This document shows, in pieces, positions 5,860-64,000 of a stretch of DNA of 64,000 nt; position 1 is the stretch's first letter; each line of letters begins with the position of its first letter. A program made the translations under genes and the position numbers. The notes beneath the pieces are model-generated. The model did not search any database. It was given only the letters and a program-made list of their open reading frames with translations, and was not told the DNA's origin. The stretch is from Heptranchias perlo. Its lineage: Eukaryota. The stretch spans positions 16,492,001 through 16,556,000 of the forward strand of contig NC_090359.1 in NCBI RefSeq assembly GCF_035084215.1. Direction: 5' to 3'.

Positions 5860-6075
5860 GCAAAGATTGGGAGATGTTAGGAACACTCTTCCACAAATGG
5901 CAGTTGATGCTAGCTCAATTGTTAAATCTATTATCTCAGGTTAAAATTTTGTTAATCAAAAAGGTAAGGGATATGACTAAGGCAGGTATATGGAGTTATG
6001 TCACAGATCAACCATGATCTCATTGAATGGTGGACCAGGCGAGAGGGGCTAAATGGCCAACTCCTGTTCCTATTG
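5860..6075 (+). mobile_element. CR1-type LINE 3' end fragment
   Basis: cagatcaaccatgatctcattgaatggtgg...aggggctaaatggccaactcctgttcctat, similar to the CR1 3' end at 32950-33030. Confidence 0.6.
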
Positions 6076-9728: not shown

Positions 9729-9745
9729 GATACCAAATAACTCAA

Positions 9746-9842
9746 CTATCACTTTACCCACCAACCAGCACCTTTTTTTTTTCTCTTTTTTTTTTTCCTT
9801 TTTTTCTTTTTCTTTTATCACTTTAACCACCAACCAGCACCC
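9746..9842 (-). repeat. About 26-bp direct duplication of the ZP3 5'UTR flanking a pure A-rich tract
   Basis: tatcactttacccaccaaccagcacc (9747-9772) and tatcactttaaccaccaaccagcacc (9817-9842) are separated only by a T-rich tract (A-rich on the minus strand). Confidence 0.85.
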
Positions 9843-10165
9843 TTTTTTTCCCTTTTTTTTTGTGTTTTTTAGGCCCCCCTTTTACAAGAAGCGGGGGGGT
9901 GTAGGGTGTGCTTAAGTACTAAAAACCAAATAAAACGAAACCAGGCATCAAATTAAAATTTTATTTTCCTCGTCCAGGATGCACTCCAGCCCCTGCAGTG
10001 CCCACCGGTCGCGGAAAGCCTCAAGCGTACCGGCAGACACCGCGTGCTCCATCTCCAGGGCCACCCGGGCGAGGAGCAACCCGCGAAAGAGAGGCAGACA
10101 AGCCGAGCGCCCGCCCCCACGGACCGCGAGCATCCTGGACCTGTGGATATCCAGGATGCACTCCA
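9843..10165 (-). mobile_element. Tx1 3' fragment inserted at the ZP3 TATA position
   Basis: ORF 9948..10133 is the Tx1 ORF2 C-terminus (...ECILDEENKILI). The 3'UTR hairpin and A-tail abut the ZP3 5'UTR. Confidence 0.9.
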
Positions 10166-14070: not shown

Positions 14071-17000
14071 TCAATCACTCTCCCCCAGGGTGAGCTTGTC
14101 AAACAGGTACACTCCCATGCCATTCTCAGGGGCTCCCAGTCTCTTCAGGTTGGTGATGTGATCTCCAAGCTTCTTGATCATCTTCACTTGTTCATCCAAG
14201 TAGTGGGTCTCCAGGAAGTCACACAACTGGAAGATGGAAAATAGTTATGTCCAGCAAGAGATGGAGGAAGATCTGAGCTTCTCCAAGGGTTTGGATTTTA
14301 ATCTTCTTGGACTGGAGGATAGTCAAGTGGTGCACTTTAGATTGATGCATTTTATACAGTAACTTTGCTCTATTAAGTGCTTAGATCCTGGGATCAGATA
14401 CATTTACTTCTAATGCAGACAGTAGGGCAATCTCCCTTTCCTGTCTCCCCTCCCCAATAAAATTTGAGCATGACACCAACAAAGCTATTGGGTATGAAGA
14501 TCTTTTGAATAGGCTCAAGGACAGTAAATTTCCACCACATCGAACTTACCCAAAGGCCCACATTAAAAACTTACATGAGGGTCTGTCCTCTCAGTGGAGA
14601 GTTTGTGCAGATCCAGCAGACTCTGGTTCACATTCTTCTCCATCTGCAGAGCTCTCTGCATCGCCTCCAGACCATTGCTCCACTCATCCTGCTCTGGCTT
14701 CTGAAAAGGGAATCAGGTCTCAGCCAGTTCACTTAATGGATTAAACAAAATACACAAGAAAGTACTGAAGGAAAATAGGGGTGAAAAGCAATCAGATGTC
14801 CATGTTGCCATGAACCAATTGTCCCAAGAATATAGAATTACACCACCACAACCACGAGTCAAATAGTATAAATGTCTTTAAGGAGAAGTACTGAGGGAGA
14901 CAGTAATAGATGGATGTGATGATAGGGCAAGATGAAGGTGGGAGGCAGCTCATGTGGAGCATAAACACCAGCATAGACCAGTTGGGCTAAATGTCCTGAT
15001 TCTGTGCTGGACATTCTATGTAATTATGTGCATTAGAACAAATTGCTTTAGAAATATTTAAAATTGTCCATTTAAGGGGAGCCATTCAGAAGGCCACTCC
15101 ATTAAATCTAACCTTGATATCCTCCAAGATGACTCGGCCCCCACGCTGATTCTGGAATTTCAGCAGTTTCTCAGCATGCTCCCGTTCCTCATGCGACTGC
15201 TCCTTGAAGAACTCAGCAAAGTGACGCAGGGCAACATCATCCCGGTCAAAGTAATAGGACTGGTGAGATCAAAAGTAGTTGGGTATCAGAATTATCATGG
15301 GTATTGTACATAAAGCCAACCTCAATATTTTGCTTTCTGTCAAGTGTTCAAGTCTCACTGAGCTTGTAGGCAGATGGTTCTGAAAACTAGCACAGGCTGA
15401 CTTGCTTCACTAACCTGGTAGTGAGATAATCTCACTCCCAGCAATAGGGAAGCTGGCCAATGGAAAATTACCAATTCAGCTTTGAACATGCTCAACACAA
15501 TATTTCACTTCAATCTTCACACCCAAGACTGAATTATATGTCTAGAAAGCTCTATGTGGGAAATCAGGGACCCTTCCGGTGTCCCTGACGACCATGTGTG
15601 CGGGAAATGTATCCAGCTGCAGCTACTGACAAACCGCATTGCGGCACTGGAGCTGCGGATGGATTCATTATGGAGCATTCGCGATGCTGAGAACGTCGTG
15701 GATAGCACGTTTCGTGAGATGGTCACACCGCAGGTAAAGGTTGTACAGGCAGGAAGTAATTGGGTGACCACCAGGCAGAGTAAGAAGAGCAGGCAGGCAG
15801 TGCAGGGGTCCCCTGTGGCCGTCCCCCTCTCAAACAAATATACCGCTTTGGATATGTTGAGGGGGATGACTTATCAGGGGATGGCAGCAGCAGCCAACTT
15901 CCTGGCACCAGGGGTAGCTCTGCTGCACAGGCTGGGAGGAAAAAGAGTGGAAGAGCTATAGTGGTAGGGGATTCTATCGTAAGGGGAACAGACAGGCGTT
16001 TCTGTGGCCGTAAACGTGACTCCAGGATGGTTTGTTGCCTCCCTGGTGCCAGGGTCATGGATGTCACTGAGCGGCTACAGGGCATTCTCAAGGGGGAGGG
16101 GGAGCAGGCAGAGGTCGTGGTCCACATTGGGACCAACGACATAGGTAGGAAGGGAGATGAGGTCCTGCATCAAGAATTTAGGGAGCTCGGTTGCAGATTA
16201 AAGAGCAGGACCTCAAAGGTTGTAATCTCTGGATTACTCCCAGTGCCACGGGCTAGTGAGTATAGAAATAGGAGGATAGAACAGATGAATGCGTGGCTAA
16301 AGAGTTGGTGCAGGAGTGAGGGTTTCAGTTTCCTGGATCACTGGGCCTGCTTCTGGGGAAGGTGGGACTTGTACAAGTCGGACGGGTTGCACCTGAACCA
16401 GAGCGGGACAAATATCCTTGCGGGGAGGTTTGCTGGCACTGTTGGGGGGGGGGGGTTAAACTAACTAGGCAGGGGGATGGGATACAGAGTGGAGCTACAA
16501 TAGGGGGTGATGTGCAGCCAAATAGAGAAAAAAACAAGTCAGCTTGGAAGACAGGGCAAATATGCAAGGGCAAGGCTGGATGGCATCTATTTTAATGCAA
16601 GGAGTCTTGCGAATAAGGAGGATGAACTGAAGGTGTTGATAAACACATGGGAGTATGATATTGTTGCTGTCACAGAGACATGGTTGAGGGAGGGGCAAGA
16701 CTGGCAGCTCAATATTCCGGGGTACAGAATCTTCAGGCGAGGCAGAGGAGGGGGGGGGTCGCAATATTAATTAAAGAATCAATTACTGCCATAAGGAGGG
16801 ATGATATATTAGCAGGTTCCTCAAATGAGGCCATATGGGTGGAGCTTAAAAACAAAAAGGGGGCAAGCACTTTGATGGGAGTGTACTATAGGCCCCCAAA
16901 CAGTCAGGGGGAGATAGAGGAACAGATATGTAGGCAAATCTCAGAAAATTGTGCAAATAATAGGGTAATAATAGTGGGAGATTTCAACTTCCCCAATATT

Positions 17001-20000
17001 AACTGGGATACTCAGAGTGTAAAAGGCTTAGAGGGTACAAAATTCTTAACGTGCATCCAGGAGAGCTTTTTGAGCCAGCATGTAGAAAGTCCTACAAGAG
17101 AGGGGGCGGTACTGGACCTAATTCTAGGGAATGTGGCCGGCCAAGTGGAAGAAGTGCTAGTAGGTGACCAGTTTGGTGACAGTGACCATAATTCGGTGAG
17201 ATTTAAGGTGGTCATGGAAAAGGACAGGGAGGGGCCGGAAATAAAGGTTCTAAATTGGGGGAAGGCCGATTTTAATAGGATAAGGCAGGATCTGGCCAAA
17301 ATGGACTGGGATCAGCTGCTTGTAGGAAAATCCGCATCGGAGCAATGGGAGTCTTTCAGAAGGGAGATTGAGACCATACAATGGCAACATGTTCCCGTAA
17401 AAGTCAAGGGTGGTTCCAAGAACTCCAGGGAACCTTGGATGTCAGGGGATATACGAGAATGGATTAGGAAAAAAAAGGAGGGCTTTTGGCAGATACAAAA
17501 GGCTAAAGACGGAGGAAGCCCTGGAGGAGTACAAAAAGTGCAGGGGGATACTTAAAAAAGAAATTAGGAGATCAAGGAGGGGCCATGAAATAACACTGGC
17601 GAGCAAAATAAAGGAAAATCCTAAGATGTTTTATAAGTATATTAAGGGTAAGAGGATGACTAGGGAAAAAATAGGGCCCATTAGGGACAAAAATGGCAAT
17701 CTGTGTGTGGAGCCGGCAGATGTAGGAGGGGTTCTAAATGAATTTTTTGCATCTGTTTTCACTATGGAGAAGGACGATGTAGACATAGAAATACGGCAGG
17801 GGGACTGTGATATACTCGAACATATTAACATCGAGCGGGAGGAGGTATTGGCGGTTTTAGCAGGCCTAAAAATGGATAAATCCCCAGGCCTGGACGAAAT
17901 GTATCCCAGGCTACTGTGTGAGGCAAAGGAGGAGATTGCGGGGGCTCTGACACATATATTCAGAACCTCTCTGGCCACAGGGGATGTGCCAGAGGACTGG
18001 AGAACCGCTAATGTAATAGCATTATTCAAGAAGGGGAGTAGGGAAAAACCGGGGAACTACAGGCCAGTGAGCCTAACATCAGTGGTAGGAAAATTATTGG
18101 AAAAAATTCTGAAGGACAAAATTAGTCTCCACTTGGAGAAGCAAGGATTAATCAGGGATAGTCAACATGGCTTTGTCAAGGGATAGTCAACATGGCTTTG
18201 TTGAGGGGGTGACTAGGCGTGTGGATGAGGGTGACGCAGTGGATGTGGTATACATGGATTTCAGTAAGGCCTTCGATAAAGTCCCGCACAGGAGACTGGT
18301 CAAGAAGGTACGAGCCCATGGAATCCAGGGTGCCTTGGCACTTTGGATACAAAACTGGCTTAGTGGCAGAAGGCAGAGGGTGATGGTCGAAGGTTGTTTT
18401 TGTGACTGGAAGCCTGTGGCCAGTGGGGTACCACAGGGATCGGTGCTGGGTCCCTTGCTGTTTGTGGTCTACATTAATGACTTGGATATGAATGTAAAAG
18501 GTATGATCAGTAAGTTCGCTGATGATACAAAGATTGGTAGGGTGGTAAATAACGAGGAGGATAGCCTCAGTCTGCAGGACGATATAGATGGGTTGGTCAG
18601 ATGGGCGGAACAGTGGCAAATGGAATTTAACCCAGAAAAGTGCGAGGTGATGCACTTTGGAGGGACTAACAAGGCAAGGGAATACACAATGAATGGGAGG
18701 ACCCTAGGCAAGACAGAGGGTCAGAGGGATCTTGGTGTGCAAGTTCACAGATCCCTGAAGGCGGCGGAACAGGTAGATAAGGTGGTAAAGAAGGCATATG
18801 GGATACTTGCCTTTATTAGCCGAGGCATAGAATATAAGAGCAAGGAGGTTATGATGGAGCTGTACAGAACACTGGTTAGGCCACAGCTGGAGTACTGTGT
18901 GCAGTTCTGGTCGCCACACTACAGGAAGGATGTGATCGCTTTGGAGAGGGTGCAGAGGAGATTCACCAGGATGTTACCAGGGCTGGAGCGCTTCAGCTAT
19001 GAAGAGAGACTGGGAAGATTGGGTTTGTTTTCCTTGGAGCAGAGGAGGCTGAGGGGGGACATGATTGAGGTGTACAAAATAATGAGGGGCACAGATAGGA
19101 TGGATACTAAAGAGCTTTTTCCCTTCGTTGCGGGTTCTATAACAAGGGGACATAGATTCAAGGTAAAAGGCAGGAGGTTTAGAGGGGATTTGAGAAAGAA
19201 CTTTTTCACCCAGAGGGTGGTTGGAGTCTGGAACTCACTGCCTGAAAGGGTTGCGGAGGCAGGAACCCTCACAACATTCAAGAAGCATTTGGATGAGCAC
19301 TTGAAATGCCATAGCATACAAGGCTACGGACCAAATGCTGGAATATGGGATTAGAGTAGACAGGGCTGATGGCCGGCACGGACACGATGGGCCGAAGGGC
19401 CTCTATCCGTGCTGCATGACTCTATGACTCAAAGCTTACATCCTTTTCATGACTGAAATTTGAAACAAACCCCTTTCTACAACTACCACAAACAGCATTA
19501 ACTTAGCACCTTCAACACTAAACATCAAGGCATTTCAGAGGAGAAACAGATACCAAGCAGTAAGAGTTGCATGACTAGAAACTGTTAGCATTTGAATGCT
19601 TTGAGAGACAGACAGAGGTAGGAAGGCAAAGGGATTAACAGTTACACTGAGTAGGACCAAAATGGCTGAAGGCCCTACCACCAATAGAGCAAAGGCAGAG
19701 AGAGAAGACAGACAGGGACAAGCTGGTACTTAAAAAGTGAAGGTTCAGAGCATAGAAACAGAAGTGGGACATACAGCCAATTGAACCAACTCAATGATTT
19801 AATTAGAACATGGATCTGTACATCAACTCATCCTTCAATACCCTGACCCAACAAAAGATTTCAGTCTTGAAAGCACCAATTAATCCCCAACATCCACAGA
19901 CTTTCAAGGGAGAGAGTTCTAGATTTCCAGTACCTTTGAGGGGAAAAGTGCTTCCTCACTTACCTCCTAAATGGACTCGCTCTAATTTAAGATTATGACC

Positions 20001-34153: not shown

Positions 34154-37100
34154 TCAAATTAAAATTTTATTATCCTCGTCCAGGATGCACTCCAGCCCCT
34201 GCGGTGCCCACCGGCCGCGGAAAGCCTCGAGCGTACCGGCAGACACCGCGTGCTCCATCTCCAGGGCCACCCGGGCGCGGAGCATTCCGCGGAAGAGAGG
34301 CAGACAGGCCGAGCGACCGCCCCCACGGACCACGATCATCCTAGACCTGTGGATGGCCACCTTGGACAGGCCCAGGAGCAGGCCCACGAGAACGTCCACC
34401 GACCTGCCCGCCCCCCTCCTCACCGGGCGGCCAACGATCAGGAGCGTGGGACTGAAATGCAGCCAGAACTTGAGGAGCAGCCCCTTCAAATAATCAAACC
34501 GGGGCTGCAGTCTCCCACACCCCGTGAACAAATGAAACACGGACTCCTCCAGGCCGCAGAAATCACAAGCGGCCTGGGTGTCCGTGAAATGGCGTAACCG
34601 CCGGTTGCACGCGACTGCTCCGTGCGCCACCCTCCACCCCAGATCCCCGATGGAACACGGGAGGATCCCTGAGTAGAGAGCCCCCCACTGGGAACCCCCG
34701 TCTCCGCCGGACGGCAGGATGGTACGCCAGGGCGTGTCCGGCCGAGAGACGAGGGCGAGGAAGTGGATGGTGTGCAGGAGCAGCCCGTACAGGAAATCCC
34801 TCCGCGCGGTGTGAAACGGCACGGAGGGAATTTCCGAGAGACGGCTGAAGTTGTGAGGCGCGGCCCTCCGAGGGAGGTTCCGGGGTTTGGCGCCGAGGAG
34901 GAAGTCCGTCCGAACGGGGGTCAGGTCGGACGGGATGGCTCCGCACGACTGAGCCGCCTCCACATCCCGAGTGGAGTCAGGGCCGAGCGCCGATTTCAAC
35001 GCCCAGATGGCGATGGCCGCGTCACCGGCACGCCACGAGGACATCCGTGCGGCGAGCGCCCACGGCTCCAAACAACCCGACCCACCGCCATCCAGGACGT
35101 CCCTGACTCTGGTCACCCGACCGGCCACGGCCCTCCGCACCGACAGCCGCGAGTGGCCGAAGCCGATATCGCGGAGGAACGGATTCCCGAGCAGCGGCTC
35201 CTGCAGGACGGCCGCTACCCCTGACGGGCGAGAGCTCCGACCGGAGGCGACCATGTTCCAGACCCTGAGCAGATCCTGGTAAAAGACAGGCAGCTCCTGC
35301 AAAGACATGCGGCCGCCCACCAGCGAGATGAACAGGAGCTGCGTGTCGTAGTTCAGGCCGTGCACCTGGCGGAAAAAATACGTCGCCAGCGCACGCCATC
35401 TAAGAGGACGCTCAACGTACAGGTATCGCCGCAGCGTCCGAAGGCGGAAAGTTGCCACCTGGGTGCGGACGCACACCAGCCCCTGACCGCCCTCCCTAAG
35501 CGGGAGACTCAGGACCGCGGCAGCGACCCAGTGTATCCCTCTGGCCCAGAAGAAGTCGACAAACTTCTTCTGAATCTTGGCGACAAACTCGGGGGGTGGG
35601 GTCAAAGTGACCCATCTGTACCACAACATGGCGGCCACCAGCTGGTTTATGACCAGCACTCGACCCCTGTAGGATAACACTCGGAGCAGTCCTGTCCAGC
35701 GCGCCAGGCGAGCGGCGACCTTGGCCTCCAGCTCTTCCCAGTTCGCCGGCCAGGCTTCCTCGGCAGGGCCGAGGTAGATTCCCAGGTACCGGAGGTGCGT
35801 GGTACTCCAGGCGAAAGGCCTGAGCTCCTCCGGCAGGGAGTCCACCCGCCACTGACCCACCAGGAGTCCGGAACATTTCTCCCAGTTGATCCTTGCGGAA
35901 GACGCCGCAGAGTAGACCTCTTGGCACTCGCGCATCCTCCGCAAGTCAAGGGGATCGGTGACCACGAGGAGCACGTCGTCGGCGTAAGCCGAAAGGACGA
36001 CCTCCACGTCCGGCTCGCGCAGAGCCAGTCCCGACAACCTCTTGCGCAAGAGGCGCAGGAAAGGCTCCACGCAGACGGCGTATAATTGGCCGGACATGGG
36101 GCACCCCTGACGCACTCCTCTCCCGAAGCGAAGGGGCGCCGTCAAGGATCCGTTAACCTTAATCAGACACTCCGCGGCGGCGTACAGAAGTCGGATCCGG
36201 GCGACGAAATGCGACCCGAACCCGAAAGCGCGCAGAGTCCCGAATAGATACTCGTGATCCACCCTGTCGAACGCCTTCTCCTGATCTAAGGAAAGGAAGG
36301 GGACCGACAGACCAGCCCTCTGGGAATGGTGGATCAGGTCCCGGACCAGATGGATGTTATCGTGGATCTTCCGGCCCGGGACCGTGTAGGACTGGTCGGG
36401 GTGGATTATGTGGGCCAGCACGGTGCCCAGGCGAGCAGACATCGCCTTGGCAAAGACCTTATAATCCGTGCTGAGGAGGGAGACCGGGCGCCAGTTTTTA
36501 AGGTTGCGGAGATCCCCCTTCTTAGGCAGCAGGACCACGACCGCCCTGCGCCACGAAAGGGGCATCTCCCCGGTCGCCAGACATTCCCCCAGGACCCGCG
36601 CGTAGTCGCCCCCCAGGACGTCCCAGAAGGCCCTGAGGAACTCCACGGTCAGCCCGTCCAGCCCCGGGGATTTGCCCCTAGAGGGCTGGTGGAGGGCGCC
36701 CGTCAGCTCCGCCAAACTCAGCGGAGCGTCCAGACTGTCGGCGTCCTCCGGGCCGACCTTCGGCAGGTCCTCCCACAAAACTCTGCGCGCCTCCTCGCTG
36801 GACGGATCCGGAGAGAACAGAGCCTCGTAGTAAGATCGAGCCCGGGCCCTGACTCCCTCCGGGTCCGAGACGAGGGACCCGTCGTCGGCCAGCAGCGTAA
36901 GGAGCTGCTTACGAGCCCCCCGCCGCTTTTCCAGCGAGTAGAAGAAGGGAGAGCCGCGGTCCAGGTCCCGCAGGAGCTGGAGCCGCGACCTCACGTACGC
37001 TCCTCGGGACCCGACCAGTTGCAGGTCCCTCAGAGCGTCCTTCCTCTCCTCGTACACCTGCCGCAGGGCCGGATCCTCGGCGGCCTGACCGAGACGGGAC

Positions 37101-38060
37101 TCCAGGCCAAGCACCTCCTGCTCCAACCGCCTGACCTCGGACTCCCGCCTCTTAGTCGACCCCCTCGCGTACTCTTGACAGAAGAGGCGGACGTGAGCCT
37201 TGCCCACGTCCCACCATAGCCTCAAGGAGGAGAAGCCTCCCCGCTTCCCTCTCCAGTCGCTCCAGAACAGACGGAACGAGTCCCGGAACCGCGCGTCCTC
37301 CAGCAGCCGGTTGTTAAAGTGCCAGTACGCGGACCCCGACCGGGCGCGGAGCAGAGCGAGCTCCATCCACACCAGGTGGTGGTCCGAGCACCACACCGGC
37401 CGGATGGAGGCCGACGGGACGCAGGAGGCGTACGCCCGCGAAACGTACAGGCGGTCGATTCTGGTGCTCCCCCCTCCGGCCCTCACAAAGGTGAACTGGC
37501 TGGAGTCGGGATGGAGATTCCGCCAGACGTCCACCAAGTCGAAGGACCCGACCAGGTCCCTCAACTTCTCCGTCGCCGTTCGGGCACGCGCGGGACCGGA
37601 GCGGTCCCTCGCCTCGAGGGTACGGTTAAAATCCCCCCCCGAGGATAATGCACTCGCCGGCGTCGACGGAGTTCAGGTAAGTGGACACTTCTTCAAAGAA
37701 GCTCACTTGCTCGGCTCCGGACCAGGGGGCGTACACGTTCACCAGGTGAAGCGGCACGTCCCCGTGGCGAAGGGCTCCGTGGAGCAAGCGGCCCGGCACC
37801 GGCTCCTTGACCCCCAAGATCTCCGGCTGAAAAGTCGGGGCCAACAAGATGGCCACCCCACTCGAAACGCTGGCGAGGTGACTCAAGTAGACCCCCCCTC
37901 CCCATTCCAGGATCCACGTGGCCTCGTCTCCCGGAACGGTGTGGGTTTCCTGCAGAAAGCACACCGCATACTTCCCGTCCCGAAGGACCGAGAACTTGTC
38001 AAATCTACGGCGGGCGTCTCTGCCGCCGTTGATGTTGAGGCTGGCTATGGTTATCTCCAT
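34154..38060 (-). pseudogene. Tx1-A ORF2: APE endonuclease, reverse transcriptase and C-terminal zinc-binding domain; one +1 frameshift in a C-run at about 37635
   Basis: SLNING, LQETH, GGDFN and SDH (APE); LDQEKAFD, QGCPMS and YADD (RT); CDFC...ESVFH. The downstream part is the 1136-aa ORF 34154..37564. Confidence 0.93.
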
Positions 38061-38090
38061 GGCAAGAGCACAGCGCAACCTACCTAAAAA

Positions 38091-40140
38091 CTAATGCGCG
38101 GAGGGAGCGGGGCCGCTAGTCGACCTCCTCTCCCCCCAAGAGCCCGGTGAGGAGGGATCTGAGCCGGCGCAGACCGACCCCGCCGCCGTCCTCCTCCGCG
38201 GCCACGGACACGACGGCGGCCCGGACCGAGCGGATCAGATGCGCCGGCTCCGACCAACGGTCGAGGGCCCGCCGGGCGCCATTGCCATGATGGGTCCAAC
38301 CGGACACAAAATCCCGGAGTTCCTCAACGGGGATGAGGGGAGACTCGGTGCAGGGCACGAGGGCGTCCACCACCTCACTGGCGGCGAACTCTAAATCCTC
38401 CCCAGTGCCCACCACCGAGTCCCCGACCTCCTCCGGGCCATCGTCGCCCGCGGCCGACCCACTCCCCGCACAGGGTGCGGAGAACGGGATGGCCGCGCCG
38501 GCCGGCCCCAACTCTGTCACGATCCCACCCCCAGGATCGTCGGCAGAGGATTCCTCCCCGGGCTCTACCGGGGGGTCCGGGTCGGAGGGCGGCTCCGGGC
38601 GAGGACCCTCCCCAGCCTCCGAGCGGTGGTAAACGGGCACCCGGATATAATGGGAAACCGGGGAAACCGGGGAGAACATATATTCCAGCTCTCCAACCTC
38701 CCCCGGCTCCGCGCCCAGAGACTGGGAGAAGGGGGTCTCCCCACCCACACCGCCACCGACCGACCCGGCCCGTGACATTTTCGTGTTAAAACCCGCCACC
38801 AGGTCGAGCAGGTCCTGGGAGAGGTCGAGCCGAGGGCAGACGAATCCGGCCTCTTCGGCCTCGCCCGCTCCGGCACCCAGGACCCCCGACCCGGTGAACG
38901 GGAAGCTCGCGTCGGCGCACGAATCCGCGGCCCCCCCTTTCGGCAGGGTCTCTCCATCCCCCCCGGGAGGCACGGGCACGATCTCCTCCCCCCGAGAGGT
39001 GGATGACCCCCGCTGGCGGTGGGAAATGGAGGGTGGAGTCGCAGGATCCGCCGCCGGCGCCGACTCCGATTCCCTTTTCGCGGGGGGGCCGTCCCTTGGC
39101 AGGGTTCCCCTCCGCTTCCAGGGAGCGGCGCCTTTTCTGTTTTCCGGAGGGTGGCGGAGGGAGGGCGAGCCCCATGTCTGTTGGGCACCCCCCCTCCGCT
39201 CCCTCCTGAATACCCGCCAGCCCTGGCTCTGCCGCGACCGCGAGTTGCCGTTTGGCCGCGGTCACGACCTCGGGCTGGCTGGAAGGATTTCCAACCCGGG
39301 GACCAGCCTCCTGATGTTTACTCTTCTTCCGCGCCTTCTTCGGGCGAGGGTTCCCCCCCCACCCCCGGCGGAGGCCTCGTCGGCACCCTCCGCCCGCGCA
39401 GTGGACTCTCCCGACGCGGGGGCGGGTTTGGGGGGAGGAGCGGTGGCGGCGCCAGCCTCGGCCGCCGGAGCTGCTTTGGCGGCCTGGGAGGCGGGGCAGT
39501 TCTTCCTCAGGTGCCCCACCTCCTTACAGGCATGGCACCGCCCACCCTCTGCCGTCCAGAAGACGCGGTAGGCGGTCCCCTCGTGGAGGGCGTTAAAGCC
39601 CCCCTCCGTAACCTCCTCCCGCGCCAGCTTGATAAACGCCTGGCGACGGAAGGAGTAGACATGATGGAGGCTGGTGTCCCTGAGGCCGAGCGACAGCGGC
39701 GTTACCCCCGACCTCACCTCCCCCAGTTGACGCAGGTGAGGGAGGAGGAGCTCATCCGGCAGGAAGGGCGGGACGTTTGACAGCACCACCCGCTGCGCGG
39801 TGGCCTCCAGCGGGTCCACCGGCAGGAAAGTCCCGCCCACCGTGAGCCCCTTACTAAGGGCCAGGGACACCGCCCGCTCGGACCTCAGGAAGACTACAGC
39901 CTTCCCGTACACTTTCGAGGCCGCGACGATGGCCGAGGGGCCGACAACCTCGGCCATGGCCTTCACGCAGGCCTCAATCGTCATGCCGGGGTGGGCATAG
40001 GCTTTGACCCCGTGCTTCCTCGTCACGAGGCGGAATGGCGCCGGGCCAGCAGGAGTAGCACGAGCAGCGGGAGCAGCAGCCGCAGTAACGCCCGCATACG
40101 TCCTGCTGGGTCCCGGCACTGGCGAAGATGGTGTTGCCAT
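38091..40140 (-). pseudogene. Tx1-A ORF1 (nucleic-acid binding, CCHC zinc knuckle), frameshifted
   Basis: MATPSSPVPGPSRTYA...VVLSNVPPFLPDELL...CHACKEVGHLRKNC, split over ORFs 39262..40314, 38786..39265 and 38116..38979. Confidence 0.88.
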
Positions 40141-41039
40141 TCTCTTGTACGCCACGCCCACCCCAAATCTTAGGTCTTCCAGGTATTTTTCTTTTTTTTT
40201 GGTTGGACCAAAAGCCCAAGGAAACCTCCTCTCCCCAAAATGGTACTGATCTATTGGGAGAGGGGCTCCTTTTCTGGGGCGTTTTTTCTTTTTGTTTTTA
40301 AATGCGGAAACCACAAGAGAGAGAGGGAGGGATGTTCCTTAAAGAGGAAGGAGGGAGTCTGCAGGGGCGGGCCGCTGCAGAAATGTCTCTGGAGGGAAGG
40401 AACGTACACGTACACGGGTGGCCGATAACGTGGAGTCTTCCGGTGGGCAGGGGGAGGAGATGTCTTCCCCTAGACAGCCGGAGCTGACTCGGCTCAGTCC
40501 TCCACAGATGGCAAAAGTTTCTTCACCCAGGCAGCTCCAGCTGTCCCGGGCCAGACACTTGGGGGTGGAATCCCCTGTTGGAAAAAGATCTTCTTACCTC
40601 CCCCTACCTTCAGTCGGCCACCACGATCGCCGTCGACCTCCTCTTCCTGCTGTTTGAGGCTGACAGCAGCAGCAGCAGCAACAGCACACCCCTCGCAGCT
40701 GCCTGATATTTTTTTTTCGCCTCCTTCTTTCTTTCTCCCTCCTTCCCTCTCGATGGCTTTCCTCTCCTCTGTGCTCTGCACCTGCTTGCAGCACTTCCGC
40801 AGGGCCACACTCGATTGGCTGGCAAGTGGCTCGCCAATACCGACCGGCCCCAGCACTCTCCTCACAGGCCTCTCTCCGTGGGAGACGTGTGGATGTTGTC
40901 AGAGTCCGTGAGCCACGGACTCTGCTTCAGGCTGATTGGGACAGACAATTACTGCCAGTTAACAGCCCGCAGTTCGCACCGTCACTGATGTTGAGACCCA
41001 AAAGGTCAATCCTTTTTTTTTTCCAAAGAAACTTGTGAA

Positions 41040-41237
41040 ACAGGACAGTGGAAGTGATTGAAAAAAAAAGGATTCTAATGACATTGAGTTTTTTTTCTGA
41101 AAGACATCCAATCGCATCACAACAGCGACTCATTGAAATGGAATCAGGTGACTGCAGTGTATAAAAGGTGCTGGTTGGTGGGTAAAGGAATAGTTGAGTT
41201 GTTTGGTATCATGGGGGATTTTGTAGTGAGAGGTTAA
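41040..41237 (+). promoter_or_regulatory. Orphan ZP3 promoter, 5'UTR and first 8 codons in the palindrome spacer
   Basis: CCAAT 41108-41112, E-box CAGGTG 41145-41150, TATAAAA 41160-41166. 41167-41235 matches the reverse complement of 9704-9772 with 3 mismatches, including ATG GGG GAT TTT GTA GTG AGA GGT (MGDFVVRG), then stops at the Tx1-B junction. Confidence 0.88.
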
Positions 41238-41869
41238 TCACTGTGACACGAACAACTTGCTGAGAGCAGAGCAGAGCAGAGCACAGTCAGCCAGAGGAGA
41301 AGGAGACGAGAGGAACCATCAACAGGGAAGGAGGGAGAAGGAGAACACCATCACCATCAACATCAGCCGTGAGGGGTGTGCTGCTGCGGGTTCGGCCGTC
41401 AACACAGAGGGAGGAAGAGGAGGTCGGCGCCGTGAGGTGTGGACGGCTGGAGGTAGGGGGAGGAAGAAGACCATAAAAGGACAGGGGGTTTCCCCCCAAG
41501 TGTCTGGCCCGGGACGGCTGGAGCTGCCTGGGTGAAGTTACTTTTCTTTTGTTTCCATCCTTGGAGGACTGAGCCGAGGCAGCTTCGGCTGTCTAGGGGA
41601 AGACATCTCCTCCCCACTGCCCACCAGAAGGAAGAAGGTGCAGCCCCGCCCCTCTTCGACCCACTTCAGCGGCAGCCCACCCCTGCGGACTCTCTCCTTT
41701 CTTTGGGCGCCATCCCTCCCTCACTTGCTCTCCTGCTCTTGTGAGCTATACCTCTTAAGGCATAAACATCGGACAAAGGAGCCCCTCTCCCAAATTAATA
41801 TTGGCAGACGTGGGAGAGGCGGTTATCCCGACGTCCATTAAGGCCGTCTCCATCCATCGGCCTGAGACT

Positions 41870-43916
41870 ATGGCGTCACCATCTTCGCCGGTGCCGGGAC
41901 CCAGCAGGACGTATGCGGGAGTTGCCGCGGCGGCCGCTCCTGCTGTTTCTGCCGCTCCTGCTGGGCCGGCGCCGTTTCGCCTCTTGACGAGGAAGAATGG
42001 GGTCAAGGCCTACGCCCACCCCAACATGACCATTGAGGCCTGCGTGAAGGCCATGGCCGAGGTTGTCGGCCCCTCGGCCATCGTTGCGGCCTCCAAGGTC
42101 TACGGGAAGGCTGTTGTCTTTGAGGTCCGAGCGGGCGGTGTCCCTGGCCCTGAGCAAGGGGCTCACGGTGGGCGGGACTTTCCTGCCGGTGGACCCGCTG
42201 GAGGCCACCGCGCAGCGGGTTGTCATCTCCAACGTCCCGCCCTTCCTTCCGGATGAGCTCCTCCTCCCCCACCTGCGTCAACTGGGGGAGGTGAGGTCGG
42301 GGATAACGCCGCTGACGCTCGGCCTCAAGGATAACAGCCTCCGGCATGTTTACTCCTTCCGTCGCCAAGCCTTTATTACACTGGCACGGGAGGAGGTGAC
42401 GGAGGGGGGCTTTAACGCCCTCCATGACGGGACAGCCTACCGTGTCTTCTGGACGGCGGAGGGTGGGCGGTGCCATGCCTGTAAGGAGGTGGGGAACCTA
42501 AAGAAGAACTGCCCTGCCTCCCAGGCCGCCAAACAAGCTACGGCGGCCGAGGCTGGCGCCGCCACCGCTCCTCCCCCTAACCCCGCCCTCGCGTCGGGAG
42601 AGTCAACTGCGCGGGCGGAGGTTGCCGACGAGGCCTCCGCCGGGGGGGAAGGAGGGCACCCTCGGCCGCGAAAAGCGCTGAAGAAGACGAGGCACCAGGA
42701 GGCTGGTCCCCGGGACGTTAACGGGTCGAGCCAGCCCAAGGCCGTGGTCGTGACCGCGGCTGATCAACATCTCGCGGTCGCGACAGAACCCGGGCTGGCG
42801 GGTAGTCAGGAGGGAGCGGAGGTGGGGGCCCCAGCAGACATGGGGCTCCCCCTCCCTCCGCGACCCTCCGGCAAGAAGAAAAGGCGCCACTCCCTGGAAG
42901 CAGGGGGGAAACCTGCTGAGGGACGGCCCCCCGTGGATGGGGAGTTGGCGCCACTCGCGGATCCTGCGGCCCCACCCGCTACATCTAAACAGCGGCGGGG
43001 GTCTTCTGCCTCTCGGGGGGAGGAGATCGTGCCCGTGCCGCCCGGGGGGGATGGAGAGACCCTGCTGATAGGGGGGGTCGCGGATCCGCCCATAGACATA
43101 CGTACCCCGTTCACTGGGTCGGGCGGCCTGGGTGCCGGGGTGGGCGAGGCCGAAGAGGCCGGATTCGTCTGCCCTCGGCTCGACCTCTCCCAGGACCTGC
43201 TCGACCTGGTGGCGGGGTTTAATAAAAACATCTCACGGGCCGGGTCGGTCGGTGGCGACGTGGGTGGGGGGACCCCCTCCTCCCAGTATCTGGGCACGGA
43301 GCCGGGGGAGGTGGGAGAACTGGAGTATACGTTCTCCCCGGTTTCCCCGGTTTGCCCCTATATCCGGGTGCCTGTTTTTCACCGCCCGGAGGAGGGGGAG
43401 GGTCCCCGGCCGGCGCCACCCTCTGACGCGGACCCCCCGGTAGAGCCCGGGGGGGACTCCTCTGCCGACGATCCGGGGGGTGGGATCGTGACAGAGGCGG
43501 GGCCGGCCGGCACGGCCGTCTCGTTCTCCGCACCCTGTGCGGGGAGTGGGTCGGCCGCGGGCGACGATGACCCGGAGGAGGACGGGGACTCGGTGGTGGG
43601 CACTGGGGAGGATTTGGAGTTCGCCGCCAGTGAGGTGGTGGACGCCCTCGTGCCCGGCACCTAGTCTCCCCTCATCCCCGTTGAGGAGCTCCGGGATTTT
43701 GTGTCTGTTTGGAGCCATCGTCGCGATGACGTCCGGCTGGCCCTCGACCGTTGGTCGGAGCCGACGCAATTAATCCGCTCGGTCCGGGCCGCCGTCGCGT
43801 CCGTGGCCGCAGAGGAGGGCGGCGGCAGGGTCGGGTTGCGCCGGCTCAGGTTTCTCCTCACCGGGCTCTTGAGGGAGTGGCGGTCGACTAGCGGCCCCGC
43901 TCCCTCCGCGCATTAG
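41870..43916 (+). pseudogene. Tx1-B ORF1, disrupted (frameshift at about 42120, stop at 43662, zinc-knuckle H>N)
   Basis: MASPSSPVPGPSRTYA... continues in ORF 42063..43664 (CHACKEVGNLKKNC) and ORF 43701..43916. Confidence 0.88.
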
Positions 43917-43945
43917 GTTTAAGTAGGTTGCGCTGTGCTCTCGTC

Positions 43946-46900
43946 ATGGAGATCACCATAGCCAGCCTCAACATCAACGGCGGCAGAGACGCCCGCCGTA
44001 GATTTGACAAGTTCTCGGTCCTGCGGGACGGGAAGTATGCGGTGTGCTTTCTGCAGGAAACCCACACCGTTCCGGGAGACGAGGCCACGTGGATCCTGGA
44101 ATGGGGAGGGGGGGTCTACTTGAGTCACCTCGCCAGCGTTCCGAGCAGGGTGGCCATCTTGTTGGCCCCGACTTTTCAGCCGGAGATCTTGGGGGTCAAG
44201 GAGCCGGTGCCGGGCCGCTTGCTCCACGTAGCCCTTCGCCACGGGGACGTGCCGCCTCACCTGGTGAACGTGTACGCCCCCTGGTCCGGAGCCGAGCAAG
44301 TGAGCTTCTTTGAGGAAGTGTCCACTTACCTGAACTCCGTCGACGCCGGCGAGTGCATTATCCTCGGGGGGGATTTTAACCGTACCCTCGAGGCGAGGGA
44401 CCGCTCCGGTCCCGCGGATCGCCGGTCGGCGACGGGGAAGTTGAAGGACCTGGTCGGGTCCTTCGACTTGGTGGATGTCTGGCGGAATTTCCATCCCGAC
44501 TCCAGCCAGTTCACCTTTGTGAGGGCTGCAGGAGGGAGCACCAGAATCGACCGCCTGTACGTTTCGCGGGCGTACGTCTCCTGCGTCCTGTCGGCCTCCA
44601 TCCGGCCGGTGTCGTGCTCGGACCACCACCTGGTGTGGATGGAGCTCGCTCTGCTCCGCGCTCGGTCTGGGTCCGCGTACTGGCACTTTAACAACCGGCT
44701 GCTGGAGGACGCGCGGTTCCGGGACTCGTTCCGTCTGTTCTGGAGCGACTGGAGAGGGAAGCGGGGAGGCTTCTCCTCCTTGAGGCTATGGTGGGACGTG
44801 GGCAAGGCTCACGTCCGCCTCTTCTGTCAAGAGTACGCGAGGGGGTCGACTAAGAGGCGGGAGTCCGAGGTCAGGCGGTTGGAGCAGGAGGTGCTTGGCC
44901 TGGAGTCCCGTCTCGGTCAGGCCGCCGAGGATCCGGCCCTGCGGCAGGTGTACGAGGAGAGGAAGGACGCTCTGAGGGACCTGCAACTGGTCGGGTCCCG
45001 AGGAGCGTACGTGAGGTCGCGGCTCCAGCTCCTGCGGGACCTGGACCGCGGCTCTCCCTTCTTCTACTCGCTGGAAAAGCGGCGGGGGGCTCGTAAGCAG
45101 CTCCTTACGCTGCTGGCCGACGACGGGTCCCTCGTCTCGGACCCGGGGGGAGTCAGGGCCCGTGCTCGATCTTTCTACGAGGCTCTGTTCTCTCCGGATC
45201 CGTCCAGCGAGGAGGCGCGCAGAGTTTTGTGGGAGGACCTGCCGAAGGTCGGCCCGGAGGACGCCGACAGTATGGACGCTCCGCTGAGTTTGGCGGAGCT
45301 GACGGGCGCCCTCCACCAGCTCTCCAGGGGCAAATCCCCGGGGCTGGACGGGCTGACCGTGGAGTTCCTCAGGGCCTTCTGGGACGTCCTGGGGGGCGAC
45401 TACGCGCGGGTCCTGGGGGAATGTCTGGCGACCGGGGAGATGCCCCTTTCGTGGCGCAGGGCGGTCGTGGTCCTGCTGCCTAAGAAGGGGGATCTCCGCA
45501 ACCTTAAAAACTGGCGCCCGGTCTCCCTCCTCAGCACGGATTATAAGGTCTTTGCCAAGGCGATGTCTGCTCGCCTGGGCACCGTGCTGGCCCACATGAT
45601 CCACCCCGACCAGTCCTACACGGTTCCGGGCCGGAAGATCCACGATAACATCCACCTGGTCCGGGACCTGATCCACCATTCCCAGAGGGCTGGTCTGTCG
45701 GTCGCCTTCCTTTCCTTGGATCAGGAGAAGGCGTTCGACAGGGTGGATCACGAGTATCTATTCGGGACTCTGCGCGCTTTCGGGTTCGGGTCGCATTTCG
45801 TCGCCCGGATCCGACTTCTGTACACCGCCGCGGAGTGTCTGATTAAGGTTAACGGATCCTTGACGGCGCCCCTTCGCTTCGGGAGAGGAGTGCGTCAGGG
45901 GTGCCCCATGTCCGGCCAATTATACGCCGTCTGCGTAGAGCCTTTCCTGCGCCTCTTGCGCAAGAGGTTGTCGGGACTGGCTCTGCGCGAGCCGGACGTG
46001 GAGGTCGTCCTTTCGGCTTACGCCGACGACGTGCTCCTCGTGGTCACCGATCCCCTTGACTTGCGGAGGATGCGCGAGTGCCAAGAGGTCTACTCTGCGG
46101 CGTCTTCCGCAAGGATCAACTGGGAGAAATGTTCCGGACTCCTGGTGGGTCAGTGGCGGGTGGACTCCCTGCCGGAGGAGCTCAGGCCTTTCGCCTGGAG
46201 TACCACGCACCTCCGGTACCTGGGAGTCTACCTCAGCCCTGCCGAGGAAGCCTGGCCGGCGAACTGGGAAGAGCTGGAGGCCAAAGTCGCCGCTCGCCTG
46301 GCGCGCTGGACAGGACTGCTCCGAGTGTTATCCTACAGGGGTCGTGTGCTGGTCATAAACCAGCTGGTGGCCGCCATGTTGTGGTACCGGTTGATCACTT
46401 TGACCCCCCCCCCCTGAGTTTGTCGCCAAGATTCAGAAGAAGTTTGTTGACTTCTTCTGGGCCAAAGGGATGCACTGGGTCGCTGCCGCGGTCCTGAGTC
46501 TCCCATTTAGGGAGGGCGGTCAGGGGCTGGTGTGCGTCCGCACCCAGATGGCAACTTTCCGCCTTCGGTCGCTGCGGCGATACCTGTACGTTGAGCGTCT
46601 TCTTAGATGGCGTGCGCTGGCGACGTACTTTTTCCGCCAGGTGCACGGCCTGAACTACGACACGCAGCTCCTGTTCGTCTCGCTGCTGGGCGGCCGCACG
46701 TCTTTGCGGGAGCTGCCTGTCTTTTACCAGGATCTGCTCAGGGTCTGGAACATGGTCGCCTCCGGCCGGTGCTCTCGCCCGTCAGGGGTAGCGGCCGTCC
46801 TGCAGGAGCCGCTGCTCGGGAATCCGTTCCTCTGCGATGTTGGCTTCGGCCGCTCGCGGCTGGCGAAGCAGATGGCCGTGGCCGGTCGGGTAACCAGAGT

Positions 46901-47852
46901 CAGGGACGTCCTGGATGGCGGAGGGTCGGGTTGGCTCGAGCCATGGGCGCTTGCCGCACGGATGTCCTCGTGGCGTGCCGGGGACGCGGCCGCCGCCATC
47001 CGGGCGTTGAAATCGGCGCTCGGCCCTGACTCCACTCGGGGTGTGGAGGCGGCTCAAGCGTGCGGAGCCATCCCGTCCGACCTGACCCCCGTTCGGACAG
47101 AATTCCTCATCGGCGCCAGGCCCCGAAACCTCCCTCGGAGGGCTGCGCCTCACAACTTGAGTCGTCTCTCGGAAATTCCCTCCGTGCCGTTTCACACCGC
47201 GCGGAGGGATTTCCTGTACGGGCTGCTCCTGCACACTCTCCACTTCCTCGCCCTCGTCTCTCGCCCGGACACGCCCTGGCGTGCCATCCTGCCGTCCGGC
47301 GGAGACGGGGGTCCCCAGTGGGGGGCTCTCTACTCAGGGATCCTCCCGTGTTCCATCGGGGATCTGGGGTGGAGGGTGTTGCACGGAGCAGTGGCGTGCA
47401 ACAGGCGTTTACGCCATTTTACGGACTCCCAGGCCGCCTGCAATTTCTGCGGCCTGGAGGAGTCCGTGTTTCATTTGTGCACTGGGTGTGCGCGACTGCA
47501 GCCCCTGTTCGATTATTTGGAGGGGCTGCTCCTCAGGTTCTGGCTGCATTTCAGACCCACGCTCCTGATCTTTGGCCGCCCGGTGAGGAGGGGGGCGGGC
47601 AGGTCGGTGGACGTTCTCGTGGGCCTGCTCCTGGGCCTGTCCAAGGTGGCCATCCACAGGTCTAGGATGATCGTGGTCCGTGGGGGCGGTCGCTCGGCCT
47701 GTCTGCCTCTCTTCCGCGGGTTGCTCCGCGCCCGGGTGGCCCTGGAGATGGAGCACGCGGTGTCTGCCGGTACGCTCGAGGCTTTCCGCGGCCGGTGGGC
47801 ACCGCAGGGGCTGGAGTGCATCCTGGACGAGGAGAATAAAATTTTAATTTGA
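43946..47852 (+). pseudogene. Tx1-B ORF2 (APE, RT, zinc-binding domain); one +1 frameshift in the C11 run at 46404-46414
   Basis: ORFs 43928..46417 (829 aa, APE and RT with YADD) and 46470..47852 (460 aa) join if one C is removed. Confidence 0.93.
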
Positions 47853-61863: not shown

Positions 61864-63912
61864 ATGGCTTCCCAAGTGTGTCAGAACTATCACAAGGAGT
61901 GTGAGGATGGTGTCAACAAGCAGATCAATATGGAGCTCTATTCCTCCTATGTTTATCTTTCTATGGTGAGTTTTGTTTCTTTGACCCCTTCACATTGGAG
62001 ATTCTAATGTGACATTACAAAATTCTGTTTTCTCCAACTCATCTATTGCCTTTTCTCTAATCTGCACCCCTCCCCCCAATTGATGGATGGTGAGTGTCTT
62101 TTTAAAGCTGTAATATAATGTGATTTATTGTACAGTCATTATCAAAATGTCTCCCTCTTCCTTGCAGTAGTTGCACCACATTCTATATCTTAAATCTCAA
62201 TTGTTCACTTTCCTGGTGTCTGAGCTTTCTATTGAAGTTGTGTTTTGCAGTACACTCTGCATTCAATGCCTGGGATTCATATTTCTTACCCTCTATTCTA
62301 CATCTCTCCACAGTCTTTCCCCACATTCTCCTTGCAATGGGGGGGGGGGGGTCATAATCTTAAATTAGAGCTAGTCCATTTAGGAGGTAAGTGAGGAAGC
62401 ACTTTTCCCCTCAAAGGTACTGGAAATCTAGAACTCTCTCCCTTGAAAGTCTGTGGATGTTGGGGATTAATTGGTGCTTTCAAGACTGAAATCTTTTGTT
62501 GGGTCAGGGTATTGAAGGATGAGTTGATGTACAGATCCATGTTCTAATTAAATCATTGAGTTGGCTCAAATGGCTGTATGTCCCACTTCTGTTTCCATGC
62601 TCTGAACCTTCACTTTTTAAGTACCAGCTTGTCCCTGTCTGTCTTCTCTCTCTGCCTTTGCTCTATTGGTGGTAGGGCCTTCAGCCATTTTGGTCCTCCT
62701 CAGTGTAACTGTTAATCCCTTTGCCTTCCTACCTCTGTCTGTCTCTCAAAGCATTCAAATGCTAACAGTTTCTAGTCATGCAACTCTTACTGCTTGGTAT
62801 CTGTTTCTCCTCTGAAATGCCTTGATGTTTAGTGTTGAAGGTGCTAAGTTAATGCTGTTTGTGGTAGTTGTAGAAAGGGGTTTGTTTCAAATTTCAGTCA
62901 TGAAAAGGATGTAAGCTTTTATGTTCCTTCACTAATTTCTAGACATATAATTCAGTCTTGGGTGTGAAGATTAAAGTGAAATATTGTGTTGAGCATGTTC
63001 AAAGCTGAATTGGTAATTTTCCATTGGCCAGCTTCCCTATTGCTAGGAGTGAGATTATCTCACTACCAGGTTAGTGAAGCAAGTCAGCCTGTGCTAGTTT
63101 TCAGAACCATCTGCCTACAAGCTCAGTGAGACTTGAACCCTTGACAGAAAGCAAAATATTGAGGTTGGCTTTATGTACAATACCCATGATGATAATTCTG
63201 ATACCCAACTACTTTTGATCTCACCAGTCCTATTACTTTGACCGGGATGATGTTGCCCTGCTTCACTTTGCTGAGTTCTTCAAGGAGCAGTCGCATGAGG
63301 AATGGGAGCACGCTGAGAAACTGCTGAAATTCCAGAATCAGCGTGGGGGCCGAGTCATCTTGGAGGATATCAAGGTTAGATTTAATGGAGTGGCCTTCTG
63401 AATGGCTCCCCTTAAATGGACAATTTTAAATATTTCTAAAGCAATTTGTTCTCATGCACATAATTACATAGAATGTCCAGCACAGAAACAGGACATTTAG
63501 CCCAACTGGTCTATGCTGGTGTTTATGCTCCACATGAGCTGCCTCCCACCTTCATCTTGCCCTATCATCACATCCATCTATTACTGTCTCCCTCAGTACT
63601 TCTCCTTAAAGACATTTATACTATTTGACTCGTGGTTGTGGTGGTGTAATTCTATATTCTTGGGACAATTGGTTCATGGCAACATGGACATCTGATTGCT
63701 TTTCACCCCTATTTTCCTTCAGTACTTTCTTGTGTATTTTGTTTAATCCATTAAGTGAACTGGCTGAGACCTGATTCCCTTTTCAGAAGCCAGAGCAGGA
63801 TGAGTGGAGCAATGGTCTGGAGGTGATGCAGAGAGCTCTGCAGATGGAGAAGAATGTAAACCAGAGTCTGCTGGATCTGCACAAACTCTCCACTGAGAGG
63901 ACAGACCCTCAT
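61864..63912 (+). CDS. fth1: Ferritin copy A' (exons 1-3; exon 4 beyond window)
   Basis: Exons 61864-61965, 63228-63374 and 63787-63912, open frame. No CR1 in intron 1. R>L, R>W and A>V changes relative to A. Confidence 0.92.
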
Positions 63913-64000
63913 GTAAGTTTTAAATGTGGGCCTTTGGGTAAGTTCGAGGTGGTGGAAATTTACTGTCCTTGAGCCGATTCAAAAGATCTTCATACCCAAT

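What the first reader, a model, noticed from the sequence alone, without database searches (positions are those of the whole stretch)
14487..64000. Palindrome of at least 49 kb with a spacer under 0.5 kb carrying six ferritin loci
Seen: arms of more than 22 kb each, with at least three complete intact ferritins plus a fourth open where visible, and two pseudogenes. Arm-specific insertions (CR1 left, nested Tx1 right) and indels (near 29275, 31095, 32390) show the arms have evolved separately. Known: large gene-bearing palindromes in amniotes are enriched for germline genes and maintained by arm-to-arm conversion. Inference: an amplicon of egg-provisioning genes. Caveat: two haplotypes mis-joined head-to-head could mimic this.
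Basis: partly seen in the sequence, partly recalled or inferred. Interest (0 to 1): 0.7.

Follow-up and report, generated by a model that had tools for sequence, protein, structure and literature searches.

The report
Mirror-joined copies of shark ferritin cassette
The mirror-image stretch is present in the assembly, but it is one head-to-head pair among at least 26 near-identical copies of a three-ferritin block scattered through a large cluster of egg-type genes in what is likely a shark; its two halves are not each other's closest copies, so it was likely joined by recombination through flanking retrotransposons rather than kept alike like a Y-chromosome palindrome.

Summary
Observation confirmed and extended. 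The symmetry runs from window 3924 to about 75048 (about 71 kb) and holds four intact ferritins, two ferritin pseudogenes and two open ZP3 genes. The core arms differ by 0.93%; the two central LINEs differ by 6% or more, so the 99%-level arms are 13.9 kb apart, not 0.5 kb. Interpretation only partly holds. The arms are two of at least 26 copies of one cassette on C38 (13 each way, all about 1% apart; 169 exact ferritin exon-4 matches genome-wide). The opposite arm is never the nearest copy, 0 of 146 two-copy variants are private to the pair, and the 'arm-specific' CR1 and nested LINE are shared with copies 1.4 and 4.4 Mb away; one 1-kb identical tract is the only hint of arm-to-arm conversion. 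The cassette is colinear with an older ferritin array on C43 and is bounded at both ends by LINE insertions. Likely mechanism: ectopic recombination through promoter-seeking Tx1-type LINEs. Ovary-expressed ferritin clusters of 150+ copies are already published for sharks; this scan noted the LINE-promoter link before on other DNA of this genome.

The parts
3924..9793 (-). Outer left segment with an open ZP3 gene (ATG 9728, last exon near 6879); mirror copy at about 69183-75048 beyond the window, 5.85% diverged
   Evidence: PF00100; best hits ZP3 structures
9781..10148 (-). LINE 3' fragment(s) joined at the ZP3 TATA position; same junction on the right arm (68897-69200)
10181..11459 (+). 5'-truncated LINE that forms the F1-side boundary of the cassette (right-arm counterpart 67044-68864)
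14071..20487 (-). Ferritin F1L, four exons, intact; carries the CR1 in intron 1
15549..19430 (+). CR1-type LINE insertion (esterase ORF1, endonuclease, RT); same junction in the copy at C38:15.107 Mb, absent from 24 other copies
23322..26373 (-). Ferritin F2L, intact; all three introns seen spliced in RNA-run contigs (any F2-type copy could be the source)
27415..28366 (+). LINE 3' fragments in the F2/F3 intergenic promoter region
28443..30323 (+). Ferritin pseudogene F3L, head-to-head with F2L
34054..40996 (-). Full-length LINE, left of centre (ORF2 broken into two frames); mosaic: 5' part like the copy at C38:16.074 Mb, 3' part like other copies
41000..41235 (+). True centre: ZP3 proximal promoter, TATA box and first eight codons; its last 75 bp or so recur at the start of the right-arm ZP3 gene (target-duplication-like)
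41236..47965 (+). Full-length LINE, right of centre (ORF1 and ORF2 frameshifted); 5' part like copies at 16.067-16.187 Mb, 3' end like the cassette-bound copy at 16.047 Mb
51678..53545 (-). Ferritin pseudogene F3R (coordinates approximate)
53770..54133 (-). 364-bp nested LINE 3' piece carrying about 120 bp of the flank that follows the cassette-end LINE (3' transduction); shared with the copy at C38:12.122 Mb
55968..59024 (+). Ferritin F2R, intact
59010..60035 (.). About 1 kb identical between the arms, just 3' of F2; only candidate arm-to-arm conversion tract (start approximate)
61864..64000 (+). Ferritin F1R; exon 4 and stop lie just beyond the window (about 64266-64421), intact; Trp at residue 60 where F1L has Arg

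Best explanation
The inverted repeat is a head-to-head pair of two separately descended copies of a three-ferritin cassette that occurs at least 26 times on this chromosome, and it was likely joined by ectopic recombination through the retrotransposon copies that bound each cassette, with little or no arm-to-arm conversion since. Steps: (1, shown) the cassette is colinear with a piece of an older ferritin array on C43, and both its ends fall at LINE tails whose sites, upstream of ferritin promoters, are empty on C43; (2, inferred) recombination between these bounding LINEs and LINE copies sitting in ZP3 promoters moved the piece into the ZP3 cluster of C38, on the right arm between a ZP3 promoter and its coding sequence; (3, shown) the cassette then multiplied in a star-like burst to about 1% divergence, in both orientations, with continuing exchange among copies; (4, inferred) a crossover or template switch inside the central LINEs tied two different cassette lineages to the two sides of one ZP3 promoter stub; (5, inferred, with published support from other sharks) the intact copies add dose of an ovary-expressed ferritin, and the mirror geometry itself has no special role.
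For: Copy number: 169 exact matches to an exon-4 26-mer, control 0; of the 100 places listed 74 are on C38 (9.64-17.72 Mb), 24 on C43, 2 on C3 (counted); 90 exact ZP3 start matches. In 21 fetched C38 regions 26 cassette copies, 13 each way. Opposite arm is nearest copy in 0 of 6 segments (ranks 2-13); right arm is 0.11% from the 12.116 Mb copy in segment S1 against 0.86% from the left arm. 0 of 146 two-copy variants are private to the arm pair, while each arm shares 12 with distant copies; 2 shared minor alleles over six segments, at or below the median pair. Arms sister in 0% of 200 bootstrap trees in both trees built. CR1 junction shared with 15.107 Mb, nested LINE with 12.122 Mb, all four small indels tested segregate among distant copies. 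Four-gamete failures in 5-43% of site pairs show exchange across the cluster; divergence does not track distance or orientation (rho -0.18 to 0.07). Colinearity with C43:4.343-4.374 Mb at 84-95%; boundary sites empty on C43. Central LINEs are mosaics; the same head-to-head centre occurs at 16.073 Mb with other flanks; the promoter-stub junction occurs 9 times and at C38:7.719 and 8.394 Mb a single LINE joins stub to ZP3 with no cassette between. Three other divergent cassette pairs exist (10.32, 15.11, 16.15 Mb); their F3/F2 hybrid junction lies in exon 3 and five copies of it share one private base.
Against: AU tests do not reject the arms as a clade (p 0.074 and 0.124). In three of six segments the arms are closer than the median pair (0.54-0.73% against 0.92-1.11%), and a 936-bp run in segment S3 is identical, longer than in all but 1 of 325 pairs, which suggests one conversion tract. 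Because all copies are about equally distant, a fold-back duplication during the burst followed by overwriting from distant copies would leave similar data. The crossover points inside the LINEs cannot be placed, since the RT region is 0-3% diverged among all copies. Only about 1.2 Mb of the cluster was read; no long read spanning the centre was seen; near-identical copies and unplaced contigs (C725, C1048) may include allelic duplicates.
Confidence: 0.65

Rival explanations
1. One cassette was copied onto itself by fold-back or template switch at the inverted central LINEs during the amplification burst, and each arm was later partly overwritten by conversion from distant copies.
For: Inverted repeats flank a single-copy centre, as in fold-back inverted duplications (PMC3907307, abstract). 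Star-like trees leave little trace of sisterhood; AU tests do not reject it; arms are closer than the median pair in three segments; long tracts shared with distant copies show that overwriting happens (11.7 kb at 99.4% with 12.116 Mb).
Against: No private shared variant in 146. The ZP3 segments differ by 5.85% while the left one is 98% like copies at 16.026, 16.128 Mb and C1048. The 3' 2 kb of the two central LINEs differ by 4-8% and match different copies, where a fold-back would have made them alike.
Confidence: 0.2
2. A Y- or X-type palindrome whose arms are kept alike by recurrent arm-to-arm gene conversion and preserved for its germline genes.
For: Core arms exceed 8 kb and reach 99.07% identity, the working thresholds in PMC8327919 (passages); germline-type genes; one 1-kb identical tract.
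Against: Arm-to-arm divergence equals that between any two copies megabases apart; 0 of 146 private shared variants; primate arms differ by under 0.2% on average against 0.93% here; insertions differ between arms and are shared with distant copies.
Confidence: 0.06
3. Assembly artefact: two haplotypes or two distant copies joined head-to-head through the 7-kb LINEs.
For: The centre is made of repeats; cassette copies lie on unplaced contigs too; no record in four runs spans 40150-41900 (contigs only, uninformative).
Against: No N in 264 kb; symmetry ends at 3924/75048 with different flanks; centre is asymmetric and has a 96% paralogue at 16.073 Mb; the arms belong to different lineages, which alleles of one locus would rarely do; three other divergent pairs exist. 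A join of two non-allelic copies inside a LINE is not excluded.
Confidence: 0.09

Closest known systems
Ovary-expressed ferritin gene clusters of Greenland and white shark (10.1101/2024.09.09.611499; passage and section 6 read)
   Same: More than 150 ferritin copies, mostly full length, in a few clusters; tissue-restricted expression (ovary there; here spliced contigs deep in X5 and X7, scarce in X6 and X8, tissues not named).
   Different: That text calls the duplications ancient and says nothing, in the section read, of ZP3 linkage, LINE-bounded cassettes, a young 1% burst or inverted pairs; its supplements could not be seen.
Primate X and Y palindromes (PMC8327919; passages read)
   Same: Arms over 8 kb at about 99%, short centre, germline-type multi-copy genes, rearranged centre.
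   Different: Arms there are each other's closest copies and under 0.2% apart through conversion; here they are two of 26+ equidistant copies; sex linkage not tested.
Fold-back inverted duplications (PMC3907307; abstract only)
   Same: Inverted sequences flanking a single-copy spacer.
   Different: Fold-back copies one arm from the other; here the arms, their ZP3 genes and their LINE tails trace to different copies.
Segmental duplication by non-allelic recombination between interspersed repeats (Alu-Alu, LINE-LINE; recalled, no call)
   Same: Duplicated block ends in copies of one retrotransposon family; chimeric elements at the junctions; both orientations.
   Different: The element here gathers at promoters of the amplified genes themselves, so the recombination sites and the cargo are coupled.

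Membership tests
Sex-chromosome-type palindrome maintained by arm-to-arm conversion | Arms of 8 kb or more at 99% identity or more | tested here: met
   Core 18.7 kb aligned, 0.93% substitutions, 29 indel events; threshold from PMC8327919 passage. Not met by the ZP3 or LINE parts.
Sex-chromosome-type palindrome maintained by arm-to-arm conversion | Arms more alike than either is to other copies or orthologues | tested here: not met
   one 1-kb exception. Orthologues in other species not available.
Sex-chromosome-type palindrome maintained by arm-to-arm conversion | On a sex chromosome or other non-recombining region | not testable with these tools
   No male/female depth data.
Sex-chromosome-type palindrome maintained by arm-to-arm conversion | Germline-biased gene content | tested here: inconclusive
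   ZP3 and ferritin; retrocopies on C3; spliced contigs but tissues unnamed; ovary expression published for another shark.
Vertebrate H-type (ferroxidase) ferritin | Ferritin domain, four exons, H-chain-like helix B with the ferroxidase Glu and His | tested here: met
   Pfam PF00210; exon 2 best matches ferritin heavy chains with that motif identical; four exons with GT-AG joints. Other ligands read by eye against recalled human numbering; H versus M subunit not tested.
Vertebrate H-type (ferroxidase) ferritin | Iron-responsive element in the 5' UTR | tested here: inconclusive
   No IRE family among Rfam matches up to E 10 in 20300-28600; no positive control was found.
Tx1 clade of non-LTR retrotransposons | Two ORFs, APE endonuclease plus RT, L1-group affinity, A-rich tail | tested here: met
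   (best solved relatives LINE-1 ORF2p).
Tx1 clade of non-LTR retrotransposons | RT groups with Xenopus Tx1L in a tree | not tested
Repeat-mediated segmental duplication | Block ends fall in copies of one repeat, junction elements are chimeric, donor site lacks the junction | tested here: met
   crossover points not resolved; a second cassette type starts at F2 exon 2 in 7 regions.

The most novel reading that the evidence does not exclude
A promoter-seeking LINE builds oocyte-gene amplicons: by inserting upstream of ferritin and ZP3 genes it lays portable recombination sites around the very genes most active in eggs, which lifted a three-ferritin piece out of the ancestral array, dropped it into ZP3 promoters on another chromosome and shuffled it dozens of times in both orientations over 8 Mb; the cassette carries its own source LINE (shown by a 3' transduction), so host gene dose and element number rise together, and palindromes are by-products.
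Probability: 0.4. Interest if true: 0.62.

Novelty: new variant of a known kind. Interest (0 to 1): 0.36.

Why it matters
As a palindrome it is ordinary and serves as a caution: 99% inverted arms with germline genes need not mean arm-to-arm conversion. The value lies in the anatomy of the shark ferritin expansion, published only as a copy count: an old array with diverged introns, a young cassette derived from it, and LINE-bounded ends that offer a testable route for moving and multiplying egg genes. It also shows that the expansion is still turning over rather than only ancient.

Tried and rejected
Read support: DNA-run contigs X1, X2, X4 cover 28-29 of 30 bins of 40150-41900 at 98% with no joints, but no record spans the stretch and the sample may be the assembly's source: no evidence either way. 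Run search listed no holder on record as RNA; X5-X9 are guessed RNA; depth cannot rank expression. IRE scan had no positive control. Pseudogene-exon test for conversion: F3L differs from its C43 counterpart by 2.3-9.9% in exons and about 6% in introns, not decisive; the four-way exon-3 alignment in that call used a wrong C43 stretch and was ignored. The intron identities from global alignment near 70% equal the shuffled level (69.7%) and mean unalignable. In one search only 14 of 25 C43 genes passed a length filter; redone with 24 open genes, 17 kept after dropping 7 with near-equal intron lengths. Tandem repeats and composition gave nothing relevant. Rfam miRNA-type hit at 27307-27501 is below threshold and reflects an inverted LINE fragment. 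Ten paper searches found no description of palindromes or LINE-bounded cassettes in shark ferritin clusters; subscription journals are not covered. PMC13701976 and PMC11719527 (passages) added nothing.
Full report
Observation. Self-BLAST of the window shows three long inverted matches at the reported places. Aligning the arms gives 0.4-1.9% substitutions per kb from 14.5 to 34 kb, then 1.3-12.7% through the two central LINEs. With 100 kb added on each side the symmetry extends to 3924 and 75048, and a second, older palindrome (about -87 kb to +3.9 kb, 93-97%) abuts it on the left. Part by part: core 0.93%, outer LINE fragment 2.7%, ZP3 segments 5.85%, central LINE ORFs 6.2%. Four ferritins are intact and two are pseudogenes; both ZP3 copies have open exons. 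The centre, about 41000-41235, is a ZP3 promoter with the first eight codons.

Setting. The window is G000:C38:16492001-16556000 of a 3.25 Gb genome; that it is a shark or ray is my inference from gene content, the published clusters and earlier notes. An exon-4 26-mer occurs 169 times (control 0); of the 100 places listed, 74 are on C38 between 9.64 and 17.72 Mb, 24 on C43, 2 on C3. The ZP3 start occurs 90 times. In the 21 C38 regions fetched I found 68 four-exon ferritin loci, 48 intact and 20 broken, organised as 26 copies of the window's cassette, 13 in each orientation; C1048 holds another. Of 8 neighbouring copy pairs within 100 kb, 7 are inverted (4 divergent including this one, 3 convergent). 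The two C3 hits are intronless retrocopies. Contigs of guessed-RNA runs from two studies skip all three F2 introns at the annotated joints in X5 and X7, and intron 3 in X6 and X8; tissue and copy are unknown.

Test of arm-to-arm conversion. Six non-LINE segments were aligned across all copies that covered 90% of them (10 to 26 rows). The opposite arm ranked 2 to 13 among neighbours, never first; in S1 the right arm is 0.11% from the copy at 12.116 Mb and 0.86% from the left arm. Of 146 variants carried by exactly two copies none is private to the arm pair; each arm shares 12 with distant copies. The CR1 5' junction occurs in 2 copies (left arm, 15.107 Mb) and the empty site in 24; the nested LINE occurs in 2 (right arm, 12.122 Mb); the indels at 26258, 29275, 31094 and 32391 each show both states in several distant copies. 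Trees are star-like with end branches near 0.5%, arms sister in 0% of bootstrap trees, but AU tests do not reject a clade (p 0.074, 0.124). Against my reading: the arms are closer than the median pair in S3, S4a and S4b, and they are identical over 936 bp of S3 (only 1 of 325 pairs longer), where both are one base from the majority while other copies differ by 2-16. That may be one conversion tract. Four-gamete failures show exchange among copies in general.

Origin of the cassette. The right arm 47970-67015 is colinear with C43:4.343-4.374 Mb at 84-95%, with deletions; intron lengths of F2 (1480, 614, 430) match the C43 gene at 4.357 Mb (1499, 612, 411) and F3 shares its exon-1 stop with the C43 pseudogene at 4.355 Mb. 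C43 holds about 30 genes in 180 kb with widely diverged introns, so I take it as the older array (inference). At both cassette ends the window has a LINE tail; on C43 the same points continue, without a LINE, into ferritin promoters. On the right arm about 75 bp of the ZP3 5' end stand both before the central LINE and at the start of the outer ZP3 gene; at C38:7.719 Mb (and 8.394 Mb by BLAST) the same two copies bracket a single LINE with no cassette. So the cassette sits inside a LINE-interrupted ZP3 start.

How the mirror formed. The central LINEs are mosaics: the left one follows the 16.074 Mb copy in its 5' 2.8 kb and other copies near its 3' end; the right one follows the 16.067-16.187 Mb type in its 5' 2 kb and the cassette-bound 16.047 Mb copy at its 3' end. 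The same head-to-head centre stands at 16.073 Mb with other flanks, and the stub-LINE junction occurs 9 times. I infer that recombination within the LINE bodies tied two cassette lineages to this centre. A parallel case is visible: three other divergent pairs come from one crossover in exon 3 between the inverted F3 and F2, whose junction was copied to five sites. The nested 364-bp piece carries the flank of the cassette-end LINE, which marks that copy as a past source element.

Comparison with what is known. 10.1101/2024.09.09.611499 (passage and section 6) reports 155 plus 179 ferritin copies in clusters shared by Greenland and white shark, expressed in ovary; supplements of that preprint are closed and may bear on structure. 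PMC8327919 (passages) gives the primate palindrome criteria and under 0.2% arm divergence; the size and identity criteria are just met here, the sister-arm property is not. PMC3907307 (abstract) gives the fold-back rival. Repeat-mediated segmental duplication is recalled, not read. Earlier notes of this scan describe the LINE's preference for ferritin and ZP3 promoters on other DNA of this genome; I used them as a lead for the ZP3 name and the promoter check, and tested these. A first-reader title on this same stretch proposes a LINE-mediated duplication-inversion; its follow-up was withheld, and my data favour a join of different copies over a copy of one arm.

Verdict. Real in the assembly, correctly described, but a local by-product of a large, young, LINE-bounded amplification inside a gene family expansion that is already published. 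New variant of a known kind; interest 0.36.

Noticed in passing
C43:4.27-4.43 Mb (L089-L106); window 23322-23474: Among 17 ferritin genes with unrelated intron lengths, exon 4 is almost invariant at synonymous sites (3 of 43 segregating against 40 of 119 in exons 1-3; fourfold diversity 0.022 against 0.12-0.20; Fisher p 0.0005, sites not independent). Exon-limited conversion, cDNA-templated conversion from the 3' end or an RNA-level constraint could explain it.
   Followed up: partly
window 63300-63306 and other F1 copies on C38: 22 of 48 intact C38 ferritins, nearly all F1-type, have Trp for Arg at residue 60 beside the ferroxidase Glu/His; F1L, the 15.111 Mb and the 9.734 Mb copies keep Arg.
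   Followed up: no
G000:C38 16.405-16.496 Mb (window -87 kb to 3922): A second palindrome (93-97%, about 12 kb centre) abuts this one at 3922/3924, next to a short repeat that also interrupts a ZP3 promoter in L005.
   Followed up: no
window 20400-20600, 26370-26500: No iron-responsive element found in the 5' UTRs; F1 has what looks by eye like a decayed one (no positive control).
   Followed up: partly
C13, C424, C37, C32, C1626: The 5' 217 bp of the left central LINE recurs at 7.2-7.5 kb spacing, i.e. tandem arrays of this element away from the cluster.
   Followed up: no
C38 9.643, 11.903, 12.303, 13.889, 13.980, 14.356, 15.899 Mb: A second cassette type matches the window only from F2 exon 2 onward and has another exon 1 and upstream gene, a chimera joined at exon 2.
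   Followed up: no
window 1407-2231: Single-exon rhodopsin-family GPCR ORF (PF00001) just outside the left arm, itself duplicated in the neighbouring palindrome.
   Followed up: no
L107:291-369: CPEB3/HDV-like ribozyme match above the gathering score near a ferritin retrocopy on C3.
   Followed up: no
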